A stretch of 64,000 nucleotides of DNA from TPA_inf: Saccharomyces (taxonomy: Eukaryota): positions 768,001-832,000 of the forward strand of contig BK006948.2 of assembly GCA_000146045.2 (NCBI GenBank). Reading direction: 5' to 3'. Shown one piece after another: positions 10,555-62,574 of this stretch. A model generated the notes under the pieces. It did not search any database. It had not been told where the DNA came from and saw only the letters and a program-made list of their open reading frames with translations. Both the position numbers and the translations under genes were made by a program. How positions within the stretch are numbered: position 1 is the first letter of the stretch; every line of letters begins with the position of its first letter.

Positions 10555-11405
<851 letters not shown>

Positions 11406-11900
11406 TTTATCTATGATTTATCTGGTTCTACTTTTGCAAAGGTTGTTTAAGCAAAGAAACTGTTTTCGGACCTTTATCTGCTATAATAATCGTTTTTTCA
11501 AAATCTGGTGCTAAGCGTAACTGGTGCAAGCCATAGGTAGCCTCACTACGGTACAGAGGTTACTTTGAAAGCAAGAACCCTTCACATGTCACACCTGCAC
11601 GCAGAGGCATGGAGAGGCCAGCACAAACCACCATGGATGGGTAAAGTCATAGAAGGAAAAGCACATGGTACCCAGGCAGAGTTCCCCCCAGCAGTGACGC
11701 TCTGTTGCACTGGCCGGAAGAAGATGGTGTAAAGAGAAGCGGTCTCCAGGCAGAACAAATTCTGATTGCCCGTCTACCGGTAAAGCTTTCTCACAATATA
11801 CCGTACGTTTCAAAAAAAATATTGATTCTTTTTTTATAAAAATATCAGTAGTATGTATGGGCTGATTGTATGGGTTTATACAGGCCGTCAAAATTTTTTC

Positions 11901-11922
11901 ACCCCCCCATACCCCACATACC
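11901..11922. promoter_or_regulatory. C/A-rich Rap1-like element (ACCCCCCCATACCCCACATACC) sitting between the divergent RPL33B and SNR17A genes
   Basis: Resembles the UASrpg/telomeric Rap1 motif ACACCCATACA. About 500 bp upstream of the RPL33B ATG and about 190 bp upstream of the U3 transcription start. Followed by a T-rich tract and the U3 TATA box. Confidence 0.45.
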
Positions 11923-12020
11923 TTTTACTATTAACCCTGATTTTTTTTCTTTTCACATACAGCGCCTTAAGGCGAAGGCAAATCCTGAAAATTTTCTCAT
12001 TTGCTTTCCCCCACCAGACA

Positions 12021-12028
12021 TATATAAA
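12021..12028 (+). promoter_or_regulatory. TATA box (TATATAAA) of the SNR17A snoRNA gene, about 80 bp upstream of its 5' end
   Basis: Read in the sequence. The spacing is typical for yeast Pol II snoRNA promoters. Confidence 0.6.
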
Positions 12029-12106
12029 GGCTTTGTATTCTGCTGTCAATTAGATTTAGTACATCTTTTCTCTTATGTTTTCTTCTTGTTTCTACTTAAA
12101 ATCTGT

Positions 12107-12596
12107 GTCGACGTACTTCAGTATGTAATATACCCCAAACATTTTACCCACAAAAAACCAGGATTTGAAAACTATAGCATCTAAAAGTCTTAGGTACTAG
12201 AGTTTTCATTTCGGAGCAGGCTTTTTGAAAAATTTAATTCAACCATTGCAGCAGCTTTTGACTAACACATTCTACAGTAGGATCATTTCTATAGGAATCG
12301 TCACTCTTTGACTCTTCAAAAGAGCCACTGAATCCAACTTGGTTGATGAGTCCCATAACCTTTGTACCCCAGAGTGAGAAACCGAAATTGAATCTAAATT
12401 AGCTTGGTCCGCAATCCTTAGCGGTTCGGCCATCTATAATTTTGAATAAAAATTTTGCTTTGCCGTTGCATTTGTAGTTTTTTCCTTTGGAAGTAATTAC
12501 AATATTTTATGGCGCGATGATCTTGACCCATCCTATGTACTTCTTTTTTGAAGGGATAGGGCTCTATGGGTGGGTACAAATGGCAGTCTGACAAGT
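12107..12596 (+). ncRNA. SNR17A: U3 box C/D small nucleolar RNA, gene copy A. Exon 1 is 12107..12120 and exon 2 is 12278..12596; the mature RNA is 333 nt.
   Basis: Begins GTCGACGTACTTCA|...TAGGATCATTTCTATAGGAATCGTCAC. Box C (GCGATGATC, about 12514) and box D (CTGA, 12588..12591). 3' end ...GGCAGUCUGACAAGU. Matches yeast U3. Confidence 0.93.
12121..12277 (+). other. SNR17A: Spliceosomal intron (157 nt) within the U3 snoRNA precursor
   Basis: 5' splice site GTATGT at 12121. Branch-like GACTAAC at 12260..12266. 3' splice site CAG at 12275..12277. Confidence 0.9.
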
Positions 12597-12905
12597 TAAC
12601 CACTTTTTTCCTTTTCTAAATTGTTTAAAACCAAAGGTTTGGTTTTCAGTTAAGAAATTGGATTAGTTGGTGTGTAAGTATAATTAAATGTAGTCTTGGT
12701 TAGCTTAATGTATAGGTTCTTGATAGTATGACTCCACCTAAAATTCGTCAAGAGCGACGGATGCGAAAACAAAAAAATCGCTTTGCATCCTTACGTGCGT
12801 GAGATGGCATCGCTGGCCAAAGGGAAACGTTTCATTATTTTCTGTAGTTAACATTATGCTTTGCATGATAATAAGAGAAATTGAAGAGCGCAACGAACTA
12901 CGAGC

Positions 12906-54987: not shown

Positions 54988-56867
54988 GGATTGTTTTGGG
55001 GAACCATATCAGGGTTAGCGTTGGCAGCAGTGTTGACGTTAGTATCAACTTTAGCGTTACAATCCGATTCATTGCTGCAGTCATTGTTAGCATTACAATC
55101 CGTTTTGTCATTGCAGTCACTGTTAGCCTTGCAATCCACTCTGCCGTTAGAGTCACCATTAGCATCGCAATCAGCGTCGGCATCGGCATCTACTTTCTTT
55201 GGGTTAGCTGAAACTACCGTGCTTTTATTCTCATTTTTGCTTATTTTAATATCGATGGTACTTTCCTTGTCATTATCTGGCGTGCTTTCTTTATCATTAT
55301 TGCTATCATCTTCTTTATTTTCTTCGGTTTCTTCTTCCACAATGTCTGGTTTGTTATCGCTTTTACCCTGTATAGATGCTGGAGTATTTGGAACTTGATT
55401 TTGAACTGTTTTCAAGTTTGATTCATGAGCTGGTTGTTGCTGATTGATGGCGGAACAGTCACTGTGATTCAAAAACCTTTGACGCTTTTCTTTTCTTTCC
55501 TTCAGTAACTCTTCGTGATGCCTGGCAGATTCAACATAGTCGTGTTCTATATCATCCGGCATACAATATAATCTAAAATTATCGTCAGAATCTCTAGGGG
55601 CTTTCCATGGAAACCTTTTAAGCACCATACAACAATATATGATCCCAATAGACCATATATCGACGCACTGAGGATCATAAGATTTGGTGGAGGTAATCAC
55701 TTCCGGCGCTAAGTAAGGGTCACTACCCACGATTCCATGAGCCATCGTTACGCCATCTTCAAAAGGATATCTGAACACAACAGCACTACCAAAATCAATT
55801 AATTTCAAAATACCCTGGGAAGTCATGACACAATTATCCAATTTCAAATCTCTATGTGCCAATCCCATAGAATGTAAATATTTAACACCTTCAGTCAATT
55901 GCTTCAAGCAACAGTTGATCTCGCCACGAGACATCTTGCCTGTCATAACAACAGCAAAAAAATCAATCGGACAGTACTCCATAACTTCATAGTATTTATT
56001 TTGTTTAGAATCAGAGAAAACGTCAACAGTTTCGATAACATTTGGGTGATGTAAAGTCGAACCAATACAAAATTCTGCGGTGCACTTCTTGGCATATTCT
56101 TTCACACTCTCATTCGGTTTCCTTGGTCTGAATTCTTTGACGGCAAAAGTAGCACCATCAGTTGGTCTCACAAGAACTTTAACGGACCCACCGGCACCGG
56201 AACCCAATAACTTACCCAATTTCCCGTATTTTTGAGCCAGAATACAATCATCGTGATATATATTAATATTATTGGACAAAGATAGGATAGAATCGGTACT
56301 TGGCGGTATAGCAGACTGGGTATGAGCATAGTGGTCTGTAAAGCCATGAGGATGCTGGGCACGATAGTGATTATTTAAATTAACTGTAGAAGTTGATTTT
56401 GAAGGTGGGGGGGAATGGGTGCTATGTTTCTTGGAACGAAGTTGAGACATAGATAGTTTTTTATTTACAGAAGGTCTGAAAAACCTTTTCAATTCTGCCA
56501 TGGAGTGGGTTTGTTTTGGAGAGGCGGGAGAAGTATAGTCATGGAGCCCATGAGAAATATTATGGTGGTGGTTTGTTTCATAGTTATTATTGTAGTTGTT
56601 TGTTGAGATACTGGTTGCATTAGAATGGCTATGGGTGTTGTTATTAAGGTTTGTTGTAGTATAATTTGTAGTGGTTGTGGTAGATTTCATGGAATCTGTA
56701 GATTTCTCGCTTCTTAGTGAGTCATTACTTTGTTTTCTACCAATGAAGTTTAAGAAAGATTTAGAACTTCTGATCAACTGTGGCGGGTTATTAGACGAAT
56801 TTTCACGGTCATGATGATGGTCATTATGATGACCATGGAATGGGTTTCTCGACAATAGATTAGGCAT
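54588..56867 (-). CDS. HRK1: Ser/Thr protein kinase of the NPR/HAL5 family (regulator of Pma1), 759 aa
   Basis: Kinase core ([16 protein letters not shown]) in the middle. N-rich and Q-rich low-complexity flanks. Confidence 0.88.
54926..54985 (-). repeat. (CAA)20 trinucleotide repeat (GTT on the + strand) encoding a 21-residue polyglutamine tract in HRK1, followed by a His-rich stretch
   Basis: Twenty uninterrupted GTT units read on the + strand. The translation is [28 protein letters not shown]. Confidence 0.95.
55060..55155 (-). repeat. Imperfect tandem 18-nt repeat encoding five DC(K/N/S)xxx hexapeptides ([30 protein letters not shown]) in HRK1
   Basis: Periodicity is visible in both the DNA (...ttgcaatcc.../...ttgcagtca...) and the protein. 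Confidence 0.7.
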
Positions 56868-57932: not shown

Positions 57933-58384
57933 TCAGGTCTTGCGTGCCGAGAATTTTTTTTTTCTCTTTTTCGTTGTCAACTTTTGCAGTAGCAGCCGCT
58001 GGCGACCCGGACGGTAGCCATGGCAACGGTTAGCTAATGGTAGGTAAATAAAACGAGTAACGACGTTTTAGTATATCTTGGTAAACTACAATTAGATCTT
58101 AAAACGGTTCCTGAAAAAGTGCTTTCATCTACCATTGAATTTAATTCACTTCCCTTTATGGAATTTGCACTGGTTTTGTGCTGTGGGATGTGGGTGTTTT
58201 GAAATATTTTCAGCTTGCAAGTCGTGCATATTGCACTTGTTTCTTATTTTTGGCGAGTGTAAACGTAATAGGTAATCTTAGTATTGGGCCATCGTCGCCC
58301 AGATAGCCATTGATAAAGCAGCTAGGTTCGTCGTCCGGTTGTTGGTATACACCTGTGCGTGCGTAAGTGTAGAAAAAAATAGAA

Positions 58385-60051: not shown

Positions 60052-62574
60052 TTAGCTTGAAGCGGAAGAGCTTGCACTAGCAACAGCGACTTCCATGTCT
60101 TTATACTCAAATGCGAATGGTTCGTATGGTAAACCTTCACCCACGAAAAACTTGGACATAGATTCAACCCAGTGCAAACGTAAGGAATGAAGCATGGCAG
60201 ATGTACCTTCCATCAAAACAAGAACTGCACATGTTAGTGCGAACCACATGGCAAAAAGTGCAACCGTCATAAACACACCCACAAATCCTCTAAATCCAAA
60301 GGCAATTTGAATTGTCATTGTCCATAAAACACTAGACAATTGAGCATGTGCCAATGATAAGGCCCATAAACGTAAATAGGATGCAGTGTGCGAAACACAA
60401 TTCAAACAGAATTCAATTGTATGAATAACTTGATGAATCATAATATCACCAAAGTCTTCACCATGAGATCCAGAACCAACTTCTTCTTCTTCAGCGTCAT
60501 CGGCGTCCATCGCGGAAATTAATTGTTGTGCTTCCAAATCTTCAGAACTAGCATCTGCTTCAGTCGATGGCAGTGGTTCGTGAGATTTCTTTTTATGAGT
60601 GAATTTGAAATGTAATGGCTTCACCAATAGCAACCAAGGAATACAAACCAAGGCCATCAACAACAAAAACACTTGGACCTTTGCTTGATGAGGGTATAAT
60701 TCATCGTCAATAGTTCCTGGTGATAAAAACATGTTGATCAACATATTTAACAAACCTGGAGCAGGCTTTCCGTCCTTAACCCAATCAACAGCCCATTTGT
60801 AAACAATACAAACGGAAAGATAACCAAAGATACCTTGCATAAATAGCAAACCAGGAATAAAGTTACCGATGATATCAATCATAGAGTTAAAGTATAGGTG
60901 GTTAGCCAACGAAAAGAAATAAGAATAGGTCATGTGGATGAACCCCATTAAAATTGATAGTTTCATTTTGTAAGAATTAGAAAATAACAAAGCATTTTCA
61001 GTTCCATGCCAAGCCCAATCTAAACCGATAGGGTATGTACCCACCGATGTAGCAGTAATACTCTCACCTTTTTTCCAATGATCAGGCCATTTCCAACCAG
61101 ACTTGAAAATAGTCATAGTTTTAGAGAAGATATCGTTGTAAAGGAAACCTGTGTACATGGAAAAGACACCCATCAACAAAATAATGTATCTACCAGTGAA
61201 GGCCATATCGAAAATTTCGCCTCTTTTCATTTTGTTGATTTTCTTTTCATTCAATACAAGAGACAATGCGGCTAAGGTCATTAAGAACCCGTGACCCATA
61301 TCACCAAACATGATGGCAAACATGAAAGGGAAAGTGACAATTGTGGGTAAACCAGCATTGATTTCTCTGTACTGAGCAATACCGTAACAGTCACAGATAC
61401 TTTGGAAACCAGCAGTAAACTTGTTAGTTCTGTGGAAGGTAGGTGGAGTGTGGTTTGTATCCAGGACTTGGATAATGGATGGGACATCAATACCCAATCT
61501 TGCGATCATTTCACCAAGACGAGCTTGCAAAGTAGCCAATTCGTCTCTTGGTATCCAACCTTCAGCAATCAAAATCTTTCTATTGGTATCATAGTTAGAC
61601 TTGTTCAAAATTTCAAAAATCGCCTTTTCACGGGTAACATCTTGGAACCAAGAGTCCAATTCTTTGGCAATGGCATATAATTCACTTTCTAAAGTGGTAG
61701 AAGTGGTTTTCAAAACTGTGTACAAATCACTCAAATTCTTGTTGACCTTGGCCAATTGTTGTGATCTACCCTCGTTGGAAGAGTCAACATCGTAAAGATT
61801 GGCATCCAATGATTCCGCAATCTTTCTGATTCTTTTAATAATCAGATCACCGTGAGAAAATACGATAAAAGCATTTTTATGTTTATACTCCCTGGTTTTG
61901 ACATCATAAACAGGTTGTTCAATTTCAACAGTTTTGAAGAAAAGGTTACCTCTTAATACTCTCCAAAGAATTTGTTCTAAGGTGGCAACTTTGTCTCTAG
62001 CAATGACACCAGTGACATAGTTTACAGAAGCACCGATAGCAGCAGCAATGTTTTCCCCATTAGCGTCGATCATGTCTTCATCCATATAGGAAGTGCTGTC
62101 GGTATTATCACCCTTCAAGAAAAATTCATCACCTGACTGCAAAATAAAGCGATACTGTTCCAAGTCATTTTTCTGGACTTCAATTTGATCGGTTGCATCC
62201 TCCATTTGAATCAATCTTTCTTCCAAATATGAAGCGTTCCGGACATAATCATCTATCACTGAACCGCTTGGTGGAACGTACAATTCACCTGAGCCGTCCA
62301 AATATTTGTCCGTGTCTCCTTCGTAGAGCTTAATATCGTGTTTCTTCAAAAGAGAATAAAAGTAACGATACTGTCTTTCTACATTATCCAGTCTTCTAAT
62401 TTCGTTCACGAAAGTTCTTTGAAACGCACGCACCTTAGAGTTCAAGTCACGGAATTGAACAAGACCCAATTGACCTAAAGTGTAAGCAGAGTCTCTTGAA
62501 ATTTCTTGAGGAATATAGAATTGGACTAAAGCCATTTCAGCAGAGCGAAAAATCGCTTCCTCCTTCTCTGCCAT
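60052..62574 (-). CDS. VPH1: Vacuolar H+-ATPase V0 subunit a (vacuolar isoform), 840 aa
   Basis: Cytosolic N-terminal half followed by 8 transmembrane helices. Conserved V-ATPase a-subunit motifs (LSLAHAQLS). Confidence 0.92.
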   Translation of the reverse strand: MAEKEEAIFRSAEMALVQFYIPQEISRDSAYTLGQLGLVQFRDLNSKVRAFQRTFVNEIRRLDNVERQYRYFYSLLKKHDIKLYEGDTDKYLDGSGELYVPPSGSVIDDYVRNASYLEERLIQMEDATDQIEVQKNDLEQYRFILQSGDEFFLKGDNTDSTSYMDEDMIDANGENIAAAIGASVNYVTGVIARDKVATLEQILWRVLRGNLFFKTVEIEQPVYDVKTREYKHKNAFIVFSHGDLIIKRIRKIAESLDANLYDVDSSNEGRSQQLAKVNKNLSDLYTVLKTTSTTLESELYAIAKELDSWFQDVTREKAIFEILNKSNYDTNRKILIAEGWIPRDELATLQARLGEMIARLGIDVPSIIQVLDTNHTPPTFHRTNKFTAGFQSICDCYGIAQYREINAGLPTIVTFPFMFAIMFGDMGHGFLMTLAALSLVLNEKKINKMKRGEIFDMAFTGRYIILLMGVFSMYTGFLYNDIFSKTMTIFKSGWKWPDHWKKGESITATSVGTYPIGLDWAWHGTENALLFSNSYKMKLSILMGFIHMTYSYFFSLANHLYFNSMIDIIGNFIPGLLFMQGIFGYLSVCIVYKWAVDWVKDGKPAPGLLNMLINMFLSPGTIDDELYPHQAKVQVFLLLMALVCIPWLLLVKPLHFKFTHKKKSHEPLPSTEADASSEDLEAQQLISAMDADDAEEEEVGSGSHGEDFGDIMIHQVIHTIEFCLNCVSHTASYLRLWALSLAHAQLSSVLWTMTIQIAFGFRGFVGVFMTVALFAMWFALTCAVLVLMEGTSAMLHSLRLHWVESMSKFFVGEGLPYEPFAFEYKDMEVAVASASSSASS

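What the first reader, a model, noticed from the sequence alone, without database searches (positions are those of the whole stretch)
11387..12596. Divergent RPL33B / U3 snoRNA (SNR17A) pair, both with introns, across a shared Rap1-like element
RPL33B on the - strand needs a 527-nt intron right after codon 6 to restore the conserved L33 N-terminus. About 700 bp away on the + strand is a complete U3 snoRNA gene, itself split by a 157-nt spliceosomal intron (GTATGT...GACTAAC...CAG). An intron in a snoRNA is rare, although it is known for yeast U3. Between them, 11901..11922 is an unusually C/A-rich sequence (ACCCCCCCATACCCCACATACC) resembling Rap1/telomere-like sites. It is followed by a T-tract and a TATATAAA box at 12021. 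One Rap1-type upstream element may drive both genes. The dubious 104-aa ORF 11870..12184 (YOR235W-like) is explained entirely by the snoRNA and its promoter.
Basis: partly seen in the sequence, partly recalled or inferred. Interest (0 to 1): 0.6.

Follow-up and report, generated by a model that had tools for sequence, protein, structure and literature searches.

The report
Yeast RPL33B–U3 snoRNA divergent gene pair
This is the well-known baker's-yeast locus where the ribosomal protein gene RPL33B and the U3 small nucleolar RNA gene SNR17A, each with an intron, point away from each other; the gene models are correct, but the flagged C-rich motif is not the conserved Rap1 site, which lies about 30 bp to its left.

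Summary
RPL33B (- strand) has a 19-nt first exon (11405-11387), a 527-nt intron (11386-10860) and a second exon (10859-10555). Spliced, it encodes a full 107-aa eL33. U3 (+ strand) has a 14-nt exon 1 (12107-12120), a 157-nt intron (12121-12277) and exon 2 (12278-12596), giving 333 nt; Rfam Fungi_U3 scores 213.5 bits. Both introns sit at the same position in seven Saccharomyces species. The 104-aa ORF 11870-12184 is intact only in S. cerevisiae. All of this is already annotated and experimentally established (SNR17A, YOR234C, dubious YOR235W).

The promoter interpretation is only partly supported. The flagged element 11901-11922 is unusually C-rich, but it matches the Rap1 consensus poorly and is only moderately conserved (76th percentile). 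The best-conserved Rap1-type sites are a tandem pair at 11852-11878, oriented toward RPL33B. A pair in that orientation is present in all seven species, at the sister RPL33A-SNR17B locus, and in Lachancea and Torulaspora.

U3 has its own proximal module: an invariant TTAACCCTGA (Tbf1-like), a T-tract, an exact RRPE and a TATA box. Whether the Rap1 pair also stimulates U3 cannot be decided from sequence. Overall this is ordinary, known biology.

The parts
10555..10859 (-). RPL33B exon 2 (codon 7 position 2 through the stop codon)
   Evidence: joined to exon 1 it gives a 107-aa ORF; full-length eL33; the CDS is 91-94% identical across Saccharomyces species.
10860..11386 (-). RPL33B intron: 527 nt, GTATGT at the 5' end, TACTAAC branch site at 10914-10908, TAG at the 3' end
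   Evidence: same position and signals in 7 species, length 485-543 nt; only 57-73% identical, against 91-94% for the CDS.
11387..11405 (-). RPL33B exon 1, coding part (ATGGCTGAATCCCATAGAC; MAESHR plus 1 nt)
11538..11593 (.). Two conserved RPL33B-proximal promoter blocks: TAGCCTCACTACG at 11538-11550 and CCTTCACATGTCACA at 11579-11593. The binding factor was not identified.
   Evidence: sliding-window pair identity of at least 0.85 across 7 species.
11852..11878 (-). Tandem pair of ribosomal-protein-gene-type (RPG-type) Rap1 sites, with the C-rich strand on the RPL33B sense strand: TCAGCCCATACATA (11865-11852) and TAAACCCATACAAT (11878-11865)
   Evidence: present at the same alignment columns in 7 of 7 species, with 1-4 mismatches to WACAYCCRTACATY and invariant TGT.TGGG cores; 99th percentile of conservation; a pair in the same orientation is present at the RPL33A locus, in Lachancea and in Torulaspora.
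11901..11922 (+).
   Evidence: a composition outlier, but at the 76th percentile of conservation; 3-4 or more mismatches in S. cerevisiae. At the same alignment position S. arboricola has ACACCCATACCTC (1 mismatch).
11931..11953 (+). TTAACCCTGA, nearly invariant across the seven species (Tbf1-like: ARCCCTAA with 1 mismatch), followed by a poly(dT) tract
   Evidence: 96th percentile of conservation; exact ARCCCTAA sites occupy the equivalent place (113-203 bp upstream of U3) at SNR17B, in Lachancea and in Torulaspora.
11986..11996 (+). RRPE / Sfp1-type motif TGAAAATTTTC (exact match to TGAAAAWTTTY)
   Evidence: 0-1 mismatch in 6 of 7 species on the + strand (7 of 7 counting both strands). It is also exact in Torulaspora. 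The consensus is from PMC5416754; the gAAAATTTTc Sfp1 motif is from bioRxiv 10.1101/420794.
12021..12028 (+). U3 TATA box TATATAAA, 86 bp upstream of the first base of U3
   Evidence: present in 7 of 7 species, 99.9th percentile of conservation. A TATA box lies 65-96 bp upstream of U3 in all four lineages.
12107..12120 (+). U3 (SNR17A) exon 1, GTCGACGTACTTCA
   Evidence: the 14-mer is identical in all 10 U3 loci examined; it closes the outer helix of the 5' hairpin, which the 3' end of the intron cannot do.
12121..12277 (+). U3 spliceosomal intron: 157 nt, GTATGT at the 5' end, GACTAAC at 12260-12266, CAG at the 3' end
   Evidence: same insertion point, length 77-169 nt across species; 62-79% identical against 93-97% for the mature RNA. 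Splicing is shown experimentally in PMC5499572 and by Myslinski 1990 (cited in PMC5832005).
12278..12596 (+). U3 exon 2 (boxes A, C', B, C and D)
   Evidence: Rfam Fungi_U3 213.5 bits, covering model positions 1-274 of 274. UGAUGA, AGAGUGAGA, GAUGAUCU and GUCUGA are visible in the alignment.
12604..12646 (+). U3 3'-processing signals: U-tracts at 12604-12609 and 12612-12615, and a stem-loop with an AGGU tetraloop at 12627-12646 (Rnt1p type)
   Evidence: conserved in most of the 7 species, with a compensatory C-G to U-A change in the stem. The positions fit the +12, +18 and +58 intermediates described in PMC5499572.
11870..12184 (+). 104-aa ORF (YOR235W-like): not a gene. It overlaps a Rap1 site, the U3 promoter, U3 exon 1 and part of the U3 intron.
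   Evidence: intact only in S. cerevisiae; no Pfam family.

Best explanation
The window carries the Saccharomyces cerevisiae chromosome XV locus KIN4 - RPL33B (YOR234C) - SNR17A (U3A snoRNA) - DFR1.

Shown:
- RPL33B and SNR17A are real, divergently transcribed genes, each interrupted near its 5' end by a canonical spliceosomal intron.
- The ORF overlapping the U3 promoter is spurious.

Inferred:
- The 701-bp intergenic region is a composite of two back-to-back promoter modules, not one shared element.
- Module 1 is a tandem pair of RPG-type Rap1 sites at 11852-11878, in the orientation typical of ribosomal protein genes and 447-473 bp upstream of the RPL33B ATG. Two conserved proximal blocks accompany it. 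This module drives RPL33B.
- Module 2 is a typical independent snoRNA promoter: a Tbf1-like TTAACCCTGA, a poly(dT) tract, an RRPE/Sfp1 motif, a TATA box 86 bp upstream, and initiation at 12107. This module drives U3.
- The U3 transcript is then spliced. Its 3' end is matured through an Rnt1p stem-loop and La/Lsm-protected U-tracts.
It is most likely a weak, lineage-specific, inverted Rap1-like site or a spacer under modest constraint.
- The Rap1 pair may give some stimulation to U3 as well, by excluding nucleosomes 240-255 bp upstream of its start. This is neither shown nor required.
For: Gene models:
- establish them. Searches show conserved intron position and signals in 7 species, with exons far better conserved than introns. 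PMC5832005 and PMC5499572 document U3 splicing.
- Locus identity: the neighbours are GrpE, a kinase, DHFR and an oxysterol-binding protein, and the DFR1 orthologues come from named Saccharomyces species in the same gene order.

Rap1 pair:
- Searches show it at the same position in 7 of 7 species, at the 99th percentile of conservation.
- Searches show a pair in the same orientation at the RPL33A-SNR17B sister locus, in L. thermotolerans and in T. globosa.
- Knight et al. 2014 (PMC4117944) report that tandem head-to-tail Rap1 sites in a fixed orientation to the start site are the norm at ribosomal protein genes.
- Rap1 binding at the RPL33B promoter has been reported by ChIP-chip and in vitro (PMC1802568).

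U3 module:
- Searches show the elements and their conservation.
- The literature reports that many or most yeast snoRNA promoters are marked by Tbf1 (Preti 2010, as cited in PMC4551913 and in bioRxiv 10.1101/420794).
- The gAAAATTTTc motif is enriched at Sfp1 sites detected by ChEC, and ChEC detects Sfp1 at ribosome-biogenesis and snoRNA genes (bioRxiv 10.1101/420794).

3' end.
Against: - No transcription or occupancy data could be examined here, so the assignment of modules to genes rests on motif identity, orientation, position and conservation.
- The S. cerevisiae Rap1 sites are degenerate (2 and 4 mismatches). Across the whole window, Rap1-consensus hits are no more frequent than in shuffled sequence (8 against 8.65), so a consensus match on its own proves nothing.
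- Yarragudi et al. (PMC1802568) found no significant Rap1 motif in this promoter with their weight matrix, and saw no change in RPL33B mRNA in rap1-ts cells.
- TTAACCCTGA departs from the Tbf1 consensus at one position, and Tbf1 binding there is unverified.
- The RRPE columns align poorly (53rd percentile by column identity), although the motif itself is present in the species.
Confidence: 0.8

Rival explanations
1. One reading: the C/A-rich sequence at 11901-11922 is the Rap1 binding site, and it serves as a single shared upstream element for both RPL33B and SNR17A.
For: - It is one of only two very C-rich 22-mers in the 64-kb window.
- It contains CCCATAC and CCCACATAC, which resemble Rap1/telomeric cores.
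- A plus-strand Rap1-like match lies at the same alignment position in S. paradoxus (3-4 mismatches), S. kudriavzevii (3) and S. arboricola (1).
- Rap1 is reported at this promoter at ChIP-chip resolution, which cannot separate sites 30 bp apart (PMC1802568).
Against: - In S. cerevisiae it has 3 mismatches to the 13-mer and at least 4 to the 14-mer consensus.
- It is only at the 76th percentile of conservation, against the 99th for the adjacent pair.
- It is degraded in S. mikatae, S. eubayanus and S. uvarum.
- No counterpart was seen in the intergenic sequences printed for the RPL33A-SNR17B locus, Lachancea or Torulaspora (by inspection; one search scanned only for named consensus motifs). 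All three do keep the tandem pair.
Confidence: 0.1
2. One reading: the conserved tandem Rap1 pair at 11852-11878 acts bidirectionally and contributes materially to U3 transcription as well as to RPL33B. This would physically couple expression of a large-subunit ribosomal protein and the small-subunit-processome RNA.
For: - The pair lies only 189-339 bp upstream of the first base of U3 in all four lineages.
- The divergent RPL33-U3 arrangement predates the whole-genome duplication, and both daughter loci kept it.
- Upstream-element function is generally independent of orientation, and Rap1 is reported to control some snoRNA genes (PMC5416754; PMC4138321, citing Qu 1999 and Lieb 2001).
Against: - A Tbf1-type site lies between the Rap1 pair and the U3 TATA box in every locus, and Tbf1 has been shown to block distal upstream elements at divergent promoters (PMC4551913).
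- Rap1 restricts divergent initiation rather than promoting it (bioRxiv 10.1101/331793).
- Synteny can persist without shared regulation.
- No expression data were examined here.
Confidence: 0.3
3. The C-rich tract is the site of another factor, or acts purely through DNA structure. One candidate is a C2H2 zinc-finger protein that recognises GTGGGG/CCCCAC (a Mig1-type core, from my own knowledge). Another is a stiff, nucleosome-disfavouring spacer that separates the two promoter modules.
For: - The core CCCAkACCyC is partly conserved (invariant C502, A504, A506, C507, C510 and C512 in alignment A1) without being a good Rap1 site.
- The tract sits exactly between the two modules.
Against: - No motif library for such factors was available, so nothing was tested.
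- Conservation is modest.
- Glucose repression would make no sense for U3 or a ribosomal protein gene.
Confidence: 0.1

Closest known systems
SNR17A (U3A snoRNA gene) of Saccharomyces cerevisiae, chromosome XV
   Same: - Full-length match to Rfam Fungi_U3.
- 333-nt spliced RNA, with a 14-nt exon 1 and a 157-nt intron carrying GTATGT, GACTAAC and CAG.
- 3' U-tracts and an Rnt1-type stem-loop.
- Neighbours RPL33B and DFR1.
   Different: Nothing was detected. The window appears to be this gene itself. That identification rests on my own knowledge of the yeast map together with the gene order seen.
RPL33B / YOR234C (eL33, Pfam Ribosomal_L35Ae)
   Same: A 107-aa eL33 that differs from RPL33A at one residue (E40 against D40), with a single 5'-proximal intron after codon 6.
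   Different: Nothing was detected. RPL33B is the minor paralogue, with mRNA about six-fold lower than RPL33A (PMC9700599). That fits its more degenerate Rap1 sites, though this link is an inference.
Rap1-dependent ribosomal protein gene promoters (two tandem Rap1 sites in a fixed orientation; Knight et al. 2014, PMC4117944)
   Same: Two head-to-tail sites oriented toward the ribosomal protein gene and several hundred bp upstream of the ATG. They are conserved across species and in the paralogue.
   Different: - In S. cerevisiae both sites depart from the consensus (2 and 4 mismatches).
- One study scored this promoter as lacking a significant motif and as unaffected in rap1-ts cells (PMC1802568).
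- The Hmo1/Fhl1 promoter category of this gene could not be looked up.
Tbf1-demarcated independent snoRNA promoters (Preti et al. 2010, as cited in PMC4551913 and PMC5416754)
   Same: A GRF-type site, a poly(dT) tract and a TATA box upstream of an independently transcribed snoRNA. An exact ARCCCTAA occupies this place at SNR17B, in Lachancea and in Torulaspora.
   Different: The SNR17A copy reads AACCCTGA (G instead of A at position 7) throughout the sensu stricto species. Tbf1 binding at this variant is unverified.
SNR17B-RPL33A locus (the sister locus on chromosome XVI from the whole-genome duplication)
   Same: The same divergent arrangement, the same U3 intron position, a tandem Rap1 pair oriented toward RPL33, a Tbf1 site and a TATA box.
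   Different: - The intergenic region is shorter (604 bp) and the U3 intron is 129 nt in the strain fetched.
- The Tbf1 site is exact, and there is a PAC-like GATGAG.
- No C-rich tract equivalent to 11901-11922 was seen by inspection.
- POC4 was kept as the neighbour instead of DFR1.

Membership tests
Fungal U3 snoRNA (Rfam RF01846) | Covariance-model score above the curated gathering threshold over the whole model | tested here: met
   213.5 bits against a gathering score of 95, model positions 1-274 of 274; orthologues and SNR17B score 187-219 bits.
Fungal U3 snoRNA (Rfam RF01846) | Conserved boxes (A, C' UGAUGA, B AGAGUGAGA, C GAUGAUCU, D GUCUGA) and a 5' hairpin | tested here: met
   The boxes are visible in the alignment. 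The outer helix of the 5' hairpin forms only when exon 1 (12107-12120) is joined on.
Yeast spliceosomal intron (in U3 and in RPL33B) | GUAUGU 5' splice site, UACUAAC-type branch site at a suitable distance, and a YAG 3' splice site | tested here: met
   U3 has GTATGT, GACTAAC (12 nt from the 3' splice site) and CAG. RPL33B has GTATGT, TACTAAC (49 nt from the 3' splice site) and TAG.
Yeast spliceosomal intron (in U3 and in RPL33B) | Removal restores a conserved product; the position is conserved while the sequence and length drift | tested here: met
   same insertion points in 7-10 loci. Introns are 57-79% identical against 91-97% for exons. An intact 107-aa eL33 is restored in all 7 species.
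Yeast spliceosomal intron (in U3 and in RPL33B) | Spliced RNA observed | not testable with these tools
   No RNA-seq was available here. The literature shows splicing of pre-U3A and pre-U3B (PMC5499572; Myslinski 1990, cited in PMC5832005).
eL33 / Ribosomal_L35Ae (PF01247) | Full-length match to the family profile and to solved ribosome chains | tested here: met
   E 8.9e-43, profile positions 1-95 of 95; 106 of 107 residues identical to yeast L33-A chains.
   not within 2 mismatches. The best matches have 3 mismatches to the 13-mer and 4 to the 14-mer.
   mean pair identity 0.63, 76th percentile. The core CCCAkACCyC is kept in most species. No counterpart was seen in the sister locus or the pre-duplication species (by inspection).
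Rap1 binding site - tandem pair 11852-11878 | Consensus match, tandem head-to-tail arrangement oriented toward the ribosomal protein gene, and conservation | tested here: met
   7 of 7 species at the same alignment columns, with 1-4 mismatches; 99th percentile; the same arrangement at RPL33A, in Lachancea and in Torulaspora. The S. cerevisiae copies are themselves weak (2 and 4 mismatches).
Rap1 binding site (either candidate) | Rap1 occupancy in vivo at base-pair resolution, and an effect of site mutation | not testable with these tools
   Only promoter-level reports are available: ChIP-chip P<0.001 and in vitro binding, with no expression change in rap1-ts cells (PMC1802568).
Tbf1-marked snoRNA promoter | An ARCCCTAA site upstream of the TATA box and the snoRNA start | tested here: inconclusive
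   no exact site in the window. The nearly invariant AACCCTGA (1 mismatch) lies 174 bp upstream of U3. Exact sites occupy the equivalent place in the three other lineages.
Protein-coding gene (ORF 11870-12184, YOR235W-like) | Open reading frame preserved in related species, or a recognisable protein family | tested here: not met
   the start codon is lost in 4 of 6 species and stops appear after 2-52 codons in all 6; no Pfam match.

The most novel reading that the evidence does not exclude
The tandem Rap1 pair is a truly bidirectional upstream element that hard-wires co-expression of eL33 and U3 snoRNA. Selection for this coupling would explain why the divergent RPL33-U3 arrangement has been kept since before the whole-genome duplication, and why both daughter loci kept it. 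The C-rich inverted Rap1-like tract would then be a Saccharomyces-specific addition that strengthens the U3-facing side.
Probability: 0.2. Interest if true: 0.35.

Novelty: already known. Interest (0 to 1): 0.12.

Why it matters
It matters little beyond quality control. The finding rediscovers textbook features of the best-annotated eukaryotic genome: the U3 genes with introns (known since 1990), the RPL33B intron, and a dubious ORF.

Two points have modest value:
- The flagged motif is a decoy. The conserved Rap1 sites are the adjacent tandem pair, which one published motif search scored as not significant in this promoter.
- The divergent RPL33-U3 pairing, with its two-module promoter, is conserved within the Saccharomycetaceae and in both post-duplication copies. 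That makes it a tidy natural test case for asking whether general regulatory factor sites couple or insulate neighbouring ribosome-synthesis genes.

Tried and rejected
- Consensus scanning alone does not discriminate. ACACCCRYACAYY with up to 2 mismatches gives 8 hits in the window against 8.65 expected, and exact ARCCCTAA gives 0 hits. I therefore relied on conservation.
I reached the orthologous loci through DFR1 orthologues instead, and the RPL33A locus through an exact cluster look-up.
- Qu et al. 1999 and Preti et al. 2010, the primary papers on snoRNA promoters, are not held. I used statements in papers that cite them.
- The supplementary tables of Knight et al. 2014 (promoter category and motif positions for RPL33B) are not held.
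- Abf1, Reb1 and PAC consensus scans found nothing conserved in the SNR17A-RPL33B intergenic region.
- Single-sequence folding energies of the U3 5' domain and of the 3' stem-loop are not significant on their own (z about -1.3 to -1.6). The support for them comes from conservation and covariation.
- I looked for U3 next to RPL33 outside the Saccharomycetaceae (Hanseniaspora, Pichia, Scheffersomyces) and found none, even at a relaxed threshold in Hanseniaspora.
- I considered a Mig1-type reading of CCCCAC in the C-rich tract and set it aside. It could not be tested here and makes little biological sense.
Full report

On the + strand, GTCGACGTACTTCA (12107-12120) is followed by a 157-nt segment (12121-12277). 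That segment begins with GTATGT, carries GACTAAC at 12260-12266 (12 nt before the 3' splice site) and ends in CAG. Next comes 12278-12596. Joined, the two exons give a 333-nt RNA. Rfam's Fungi_U3 model matches at 213.5 bits against a gathering score of 95, with E 7e-56. This is the only Rfam family reaching its threshold in the 64-kb window. The Rfam alignment starts at 12263 because it forces the first 15 model positions onto the end of the intron, and it flags non-canonical pairs there. With exon 1 in place the outer helix of the 5' hairpin forms; with the intron end in its place it does not.

On the - strand, ATGGCTGAATCCCATAGAC (11405-11387) is followed by a 527-nt segment (11386-10860) with GTATGT, TACTAAC 49 nt from the 3' splice site, and TAG. 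Next comes 10859-10555. Unspliced, the frame stops after nine codons. Spliced, it encodes a 107-aa protein that covers the whole Pfam Ribosomal_L35Ae model (E 9e-43). The protein matches solved yeast L33-A chains at 106 of 107 residues, with E40 in place of D40.

The neighbouring ORFs are a GrpE protein, an 800-aa kinase, dihydrofolate reductase and an oxysterol-binding protein. From my own knowledge of the yeast map this is the order MGE1-KIN4-RPL33B-SNR17A-DFR1-HES1 on S. cerevisiae chromosome XV. The element 11901-11922 has 14 C, 6 A, 2 T and no G. It is one of only two 22-mers this C-rich (or G-rich) in the window.

**Comparative test of the gene models.** I found DFR1 orthologues and fetched the same locus from S. 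paradoxus, S. mikatae, S. kudriavzevii, S. arboricola, S. eubayanus and S. uvarum. The gene order is the same in all six.
- In all seven species the RPL33B intron follows codon 6 plus one nucleotide. It carries the same GTATGT and TACTAAC signals, varies from 485 to 543 nt, and on removal restores an intact 107-aa eL33.
- The U3 intron always follows nucleotide 14. It has GTATGT, GACTAAC exactly 12 nt from CAG, and varies from 130 to 169 nt.
- Mature U3 is 93-97% identical to the window copy, while its intron is 62-79% identical. The RPL33B coding sequence is 91-94% identical, while its intron is 57-73% identical.

This is the pattern expected of real exons and introns. The literature adds direct experimental evidence. 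The U3 introns were discovered in 1990 and are removed by the spliceosome (PMC5832005). Unspliced and spliced pre-U3A and pre-U3B have been detected by RT-PCR (PMC5499572).

**The overlapping ORF.** The 104-aa ORF 11870-12184 starts inside a Rap1 box. It runs through the U3 promoter and exon 1 and ends in the U3 intron. In four of the six other species its start codon is GTG, and in all six the frame stops after 2-52 codons. It has no Pfam match.

**The intergenic region.** I aligned the seven 701-736-bp intergenic regions (alignment A1). Mean pairwise column identity is 0.54. Sliding-window analysis and percentile ranking against same-length windows pick out a few well-conserved blocks:
- the RPL33B leader just upstream of the ATG (11406-11420);
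- two RPL33B-proximal blocks at 11538-11550 and 11579-11593, for which I could not identify a factor;
- two adjacent boxes, TATGTATGGGCT (11852-11863) and TGTATGGGTTT (11867-11877);
- TTAACCCTGA (11931-11940);
- the TATA region (12015-12032);
- the U3 start region (12096-12106).

It has mean identity 0.63 and sits at the 76th percentile. The box pair has 0.81 (99th percentile) and the TATA region 0.93 (99.9th percentile).

**Motif identity.** I used the consensus sequences listed in PMC5416754: Rap1 WACAYCCRTACATY, Tbf1 ARCCCTAA, Reb1 RTTACCCK, RRPE TGAAAAWTTTY and PAC GCGATGAGMT. Scanning all seven species gave the following.
- The two boxes are Rap1 sites on the - strand, so their C-rich strand is the RPL33B sense strand. 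They occur at the same alignment columns in all seven species, with 1-4 mismatches. In S. cerevisiae they read TAAACCCATACAAT (2 mismatches) and TCAGCCCATACATA (4 mismatches).
- Tandem head-to-tail Rap1 sites in a fixed orientation to the start site are the standard architecture of ribosomal protein gene promoters (PMC4117944).
A better version exists at the same position in S. arboricola (ACACCCATACCTC, 1 mismatch) and S. kudriavzevii (3 mismatches). In S. mikatae, S. eubayanus and S. uvarum it is degraded.
- Consensus matching alone is weak evidence. The whole window has 8 hits at 2 or fewer mismatches, against 8.65 expected from shuffles.

**The U3-proximal half.** Downstream of the C-rich tract lie four elements: the nearly invariant TTAACCCTGA (one mismatch from the Tbf1 consensus), a poly(dT) tract, an exact RRPE (TGAAAATTTTC, 11986-11996) and TATATAAA at 12021, which is 86 bp upstream of the first base of U3. 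The RRPE is present with 0-1 mismatch in six or seven of the seven species, although its columns align poorly. The RRPE sequence is also the gAAAATTTTc motif that is enriched at Sfp1 sites detected by ChEC. ChEC detects Sfp1 at ribosome-biogenesis and snoRNA genes (bioRxiv 10.1101/420794). A general-regulatory-factor site, a T-tract and a TATA box together form the published architecture of independently transcribed yeast snoRNA genes, many or most of which are marked by Tbf1 (Preti 2010, as cited in PMC4551913 and in bioRxiv 10.1101/420794).

**Deeper comparison.**
- In the pre-duplication species Lachancea thermotolerans and Torulaspora globosa the gene order is kinase - RPL33 (-) - U3 (+) - POC4 - DFR1, with U3 confirmed by Rfam.
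- The S. cerevisiae RPL33A locus reads KES1-like - POC4 - U3 (SNR17B, 202 bits) - RPL33A - kinase.
- The divergent RPL33-U3 pair therefore predates the whole-genome duplication, and both daughter loci kept it.
- All four lineages share one layout. A tandem Rap1 pair is oriented toward RPL33, 305-473 bp from its ATG and 189-339 bp from the first base of U3. A Tbf1-type site follows, 113-203 bp upstream of U3; it is an exact ARCCCTAA at SNR17B, in Lachancea and in Torulaspora. A TATA box lies 65-96 bp upstream of U3. The 14-nt exon 1 is identical in all, and the intron sits at the same position (77-169 nt).
- By inspection of the printed sequences, none of the three other lineages has a counterpart of the C-rich tract.
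- No U3 lies next to RPL33 in Hanseniaspora osmophila, Pichia membranifaciens or a Scheffersomyces species. In this small sample the pairing is confined to the Saccharomycetaceae.

**How it most likely works.**

Shown: two real genes, each spliced, and a spurious ORF.

Inferred: two back-to-back promoter modules.
- The Rap1 pair serves RPL33B, presumably together with the usual Fhl1/Ifh1 partners acting on the conserved proximal blocks.
- The Tbf1-like site, T-tract, RRPE and TATA box serve U3.
- U3 transcripts start at 12107 and are spliced early.
- U3 transcripts are matured at the 3' end through the conserved U-tracts (12604-12609 and 12612-12615) and an AGGU-tetraloop stem (12627-12646). 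That stem shows a compensatory C-G to U-A change between species. The U-tract and stem positions fit the published +12, +18 and +58 intermediates generated with Rnt1p and protected by Lhp1p and Lsm proteins (PMC5499572).

**Does Rap1 serve both genes?** This cannot be settled from sequence.
- For it: the sites are close to U3, the pairing is ancient, upstream elements generally work in either orientation, and Rap1 is reported to control some snoRNA genes (PMC5416754, PMC4138321).
- Against it: a Tbf1-type site lies between the Rap1 pair and the U3 TATA box in every lineage, and Tbf1 blocks distal upstream elements at divergent yeast promoters (PMC4551913). Rap1 restricts divergent initiation (bioRxiv 10.1101/331793).
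- In the one genome-wide study that names this promoter, it bound Rap1 by ChIP-chip and in vitro. However, it 'apparently lacked significant Rap1 binding sites' by that study's matrix, and RPL33B mRNA did not change in rap1-ts cells (PMC1802568).
- The degenerate S. cerevisiae sites fit that description. They also fit RPL33B being the minor paralogue, with about six-fold less mRNA than RPL33A (PMC9700599). This last link is my inference.

**Comparison with what is known, and verdict.**
- The membership tests for fungal U3, spliceosomal introns and eL33 are met.
- The Tbf1 test is inconclusive for this copy.
- Novelty: already known. Interest is low (0.12).
- The residual value is the corrected location of the conserved Rap1 sites, and the observation that the two-module divergent promoter is conserved across the Saccharomycetaceae.

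Noticed in passing
window 11852-11878 (- strand): A tandem pair of RPG-type Rap1 sites with invariant TGT.TGGG cores, present in 7 of 7 Saccharomyces species, at the RPL33A locus, and in Lachancea and Torulaspora.
   Followed up: yes
window 11931-11953 and 11986-11996: A nearly invariant TTAACCCTGA (one mismatch from the Tbf1 consensus) followed by a poly(dT) tract, and an exact RRPE / Sfp1-type TGAAAATTTTC between the T-tract and the U3 TATA box.
   Followed up: partly
window 11538-11550 and 11579-11593: Two strongly conserved blocks in the RPL33B-proximal promoter (TAGCCTCACTACG and CCTTCACATGTCACA). I could not assign a binding factor to either.
   Followed up: no
window 12604-12646: The U3 3' flank has conserved U-tracts and an AGGU-tetraloop stem-loop with a compensatory C-G to U-A change between species. 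Their positions fit the published +12, +18 and +58 processing intermediates (Rnt1p and Lhp1p/Lsm).
   Followed up: partly
window 12263-12277: The Rfam Fungi_U3 alignment starts inside the intron. It forces the first 15 or so model positions onto the 3' end of the intron and flags non-canonical pairs there, because a covariance model cannot skip a 157-nt intron. An automatic annotation based on it would misplace the U3 5' end by 156 nt.
   Followed up: yes
L007 (L. thermotolerans), L008 (T. globosa), L010 (S. cerevisiae RPL33A locus), L019-L021: The divergent RPL33-U3 pairing predates the whole-genome duplication. The ancestral order is kinase-RPL33-U3-POC4-DFR1. The chromosome XV copy lost POC4 and the chromosome XVI copy lost DFR1. 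No U3 was found beside RPL33 in Hanseniaspora, Pichia or Scheffersomyces.
   Followed up: partly
window 58171-58201 and 60275-60287: A GT-rich cluster containing a Rap1-consensus hit (ACACCCACATCCC on the - strand, 2 mismatches), and a separate 1-mismatch hit (ACACCCACAAATC). These may be Rap1 sites of unrelated promoters.
   Followed up: no
window 56400-56422: The only other 22-nt stretch in the window with at least 14 C (or G). I did not examine it.
   Followed up: no
window 11589-11891 (- strand): A 100-aa ORF with a TTG start, lying entirely within the intergenic promoter region. It has no Pfam match and is almost certainly a mechanical ORF only.
   Followed up: partly
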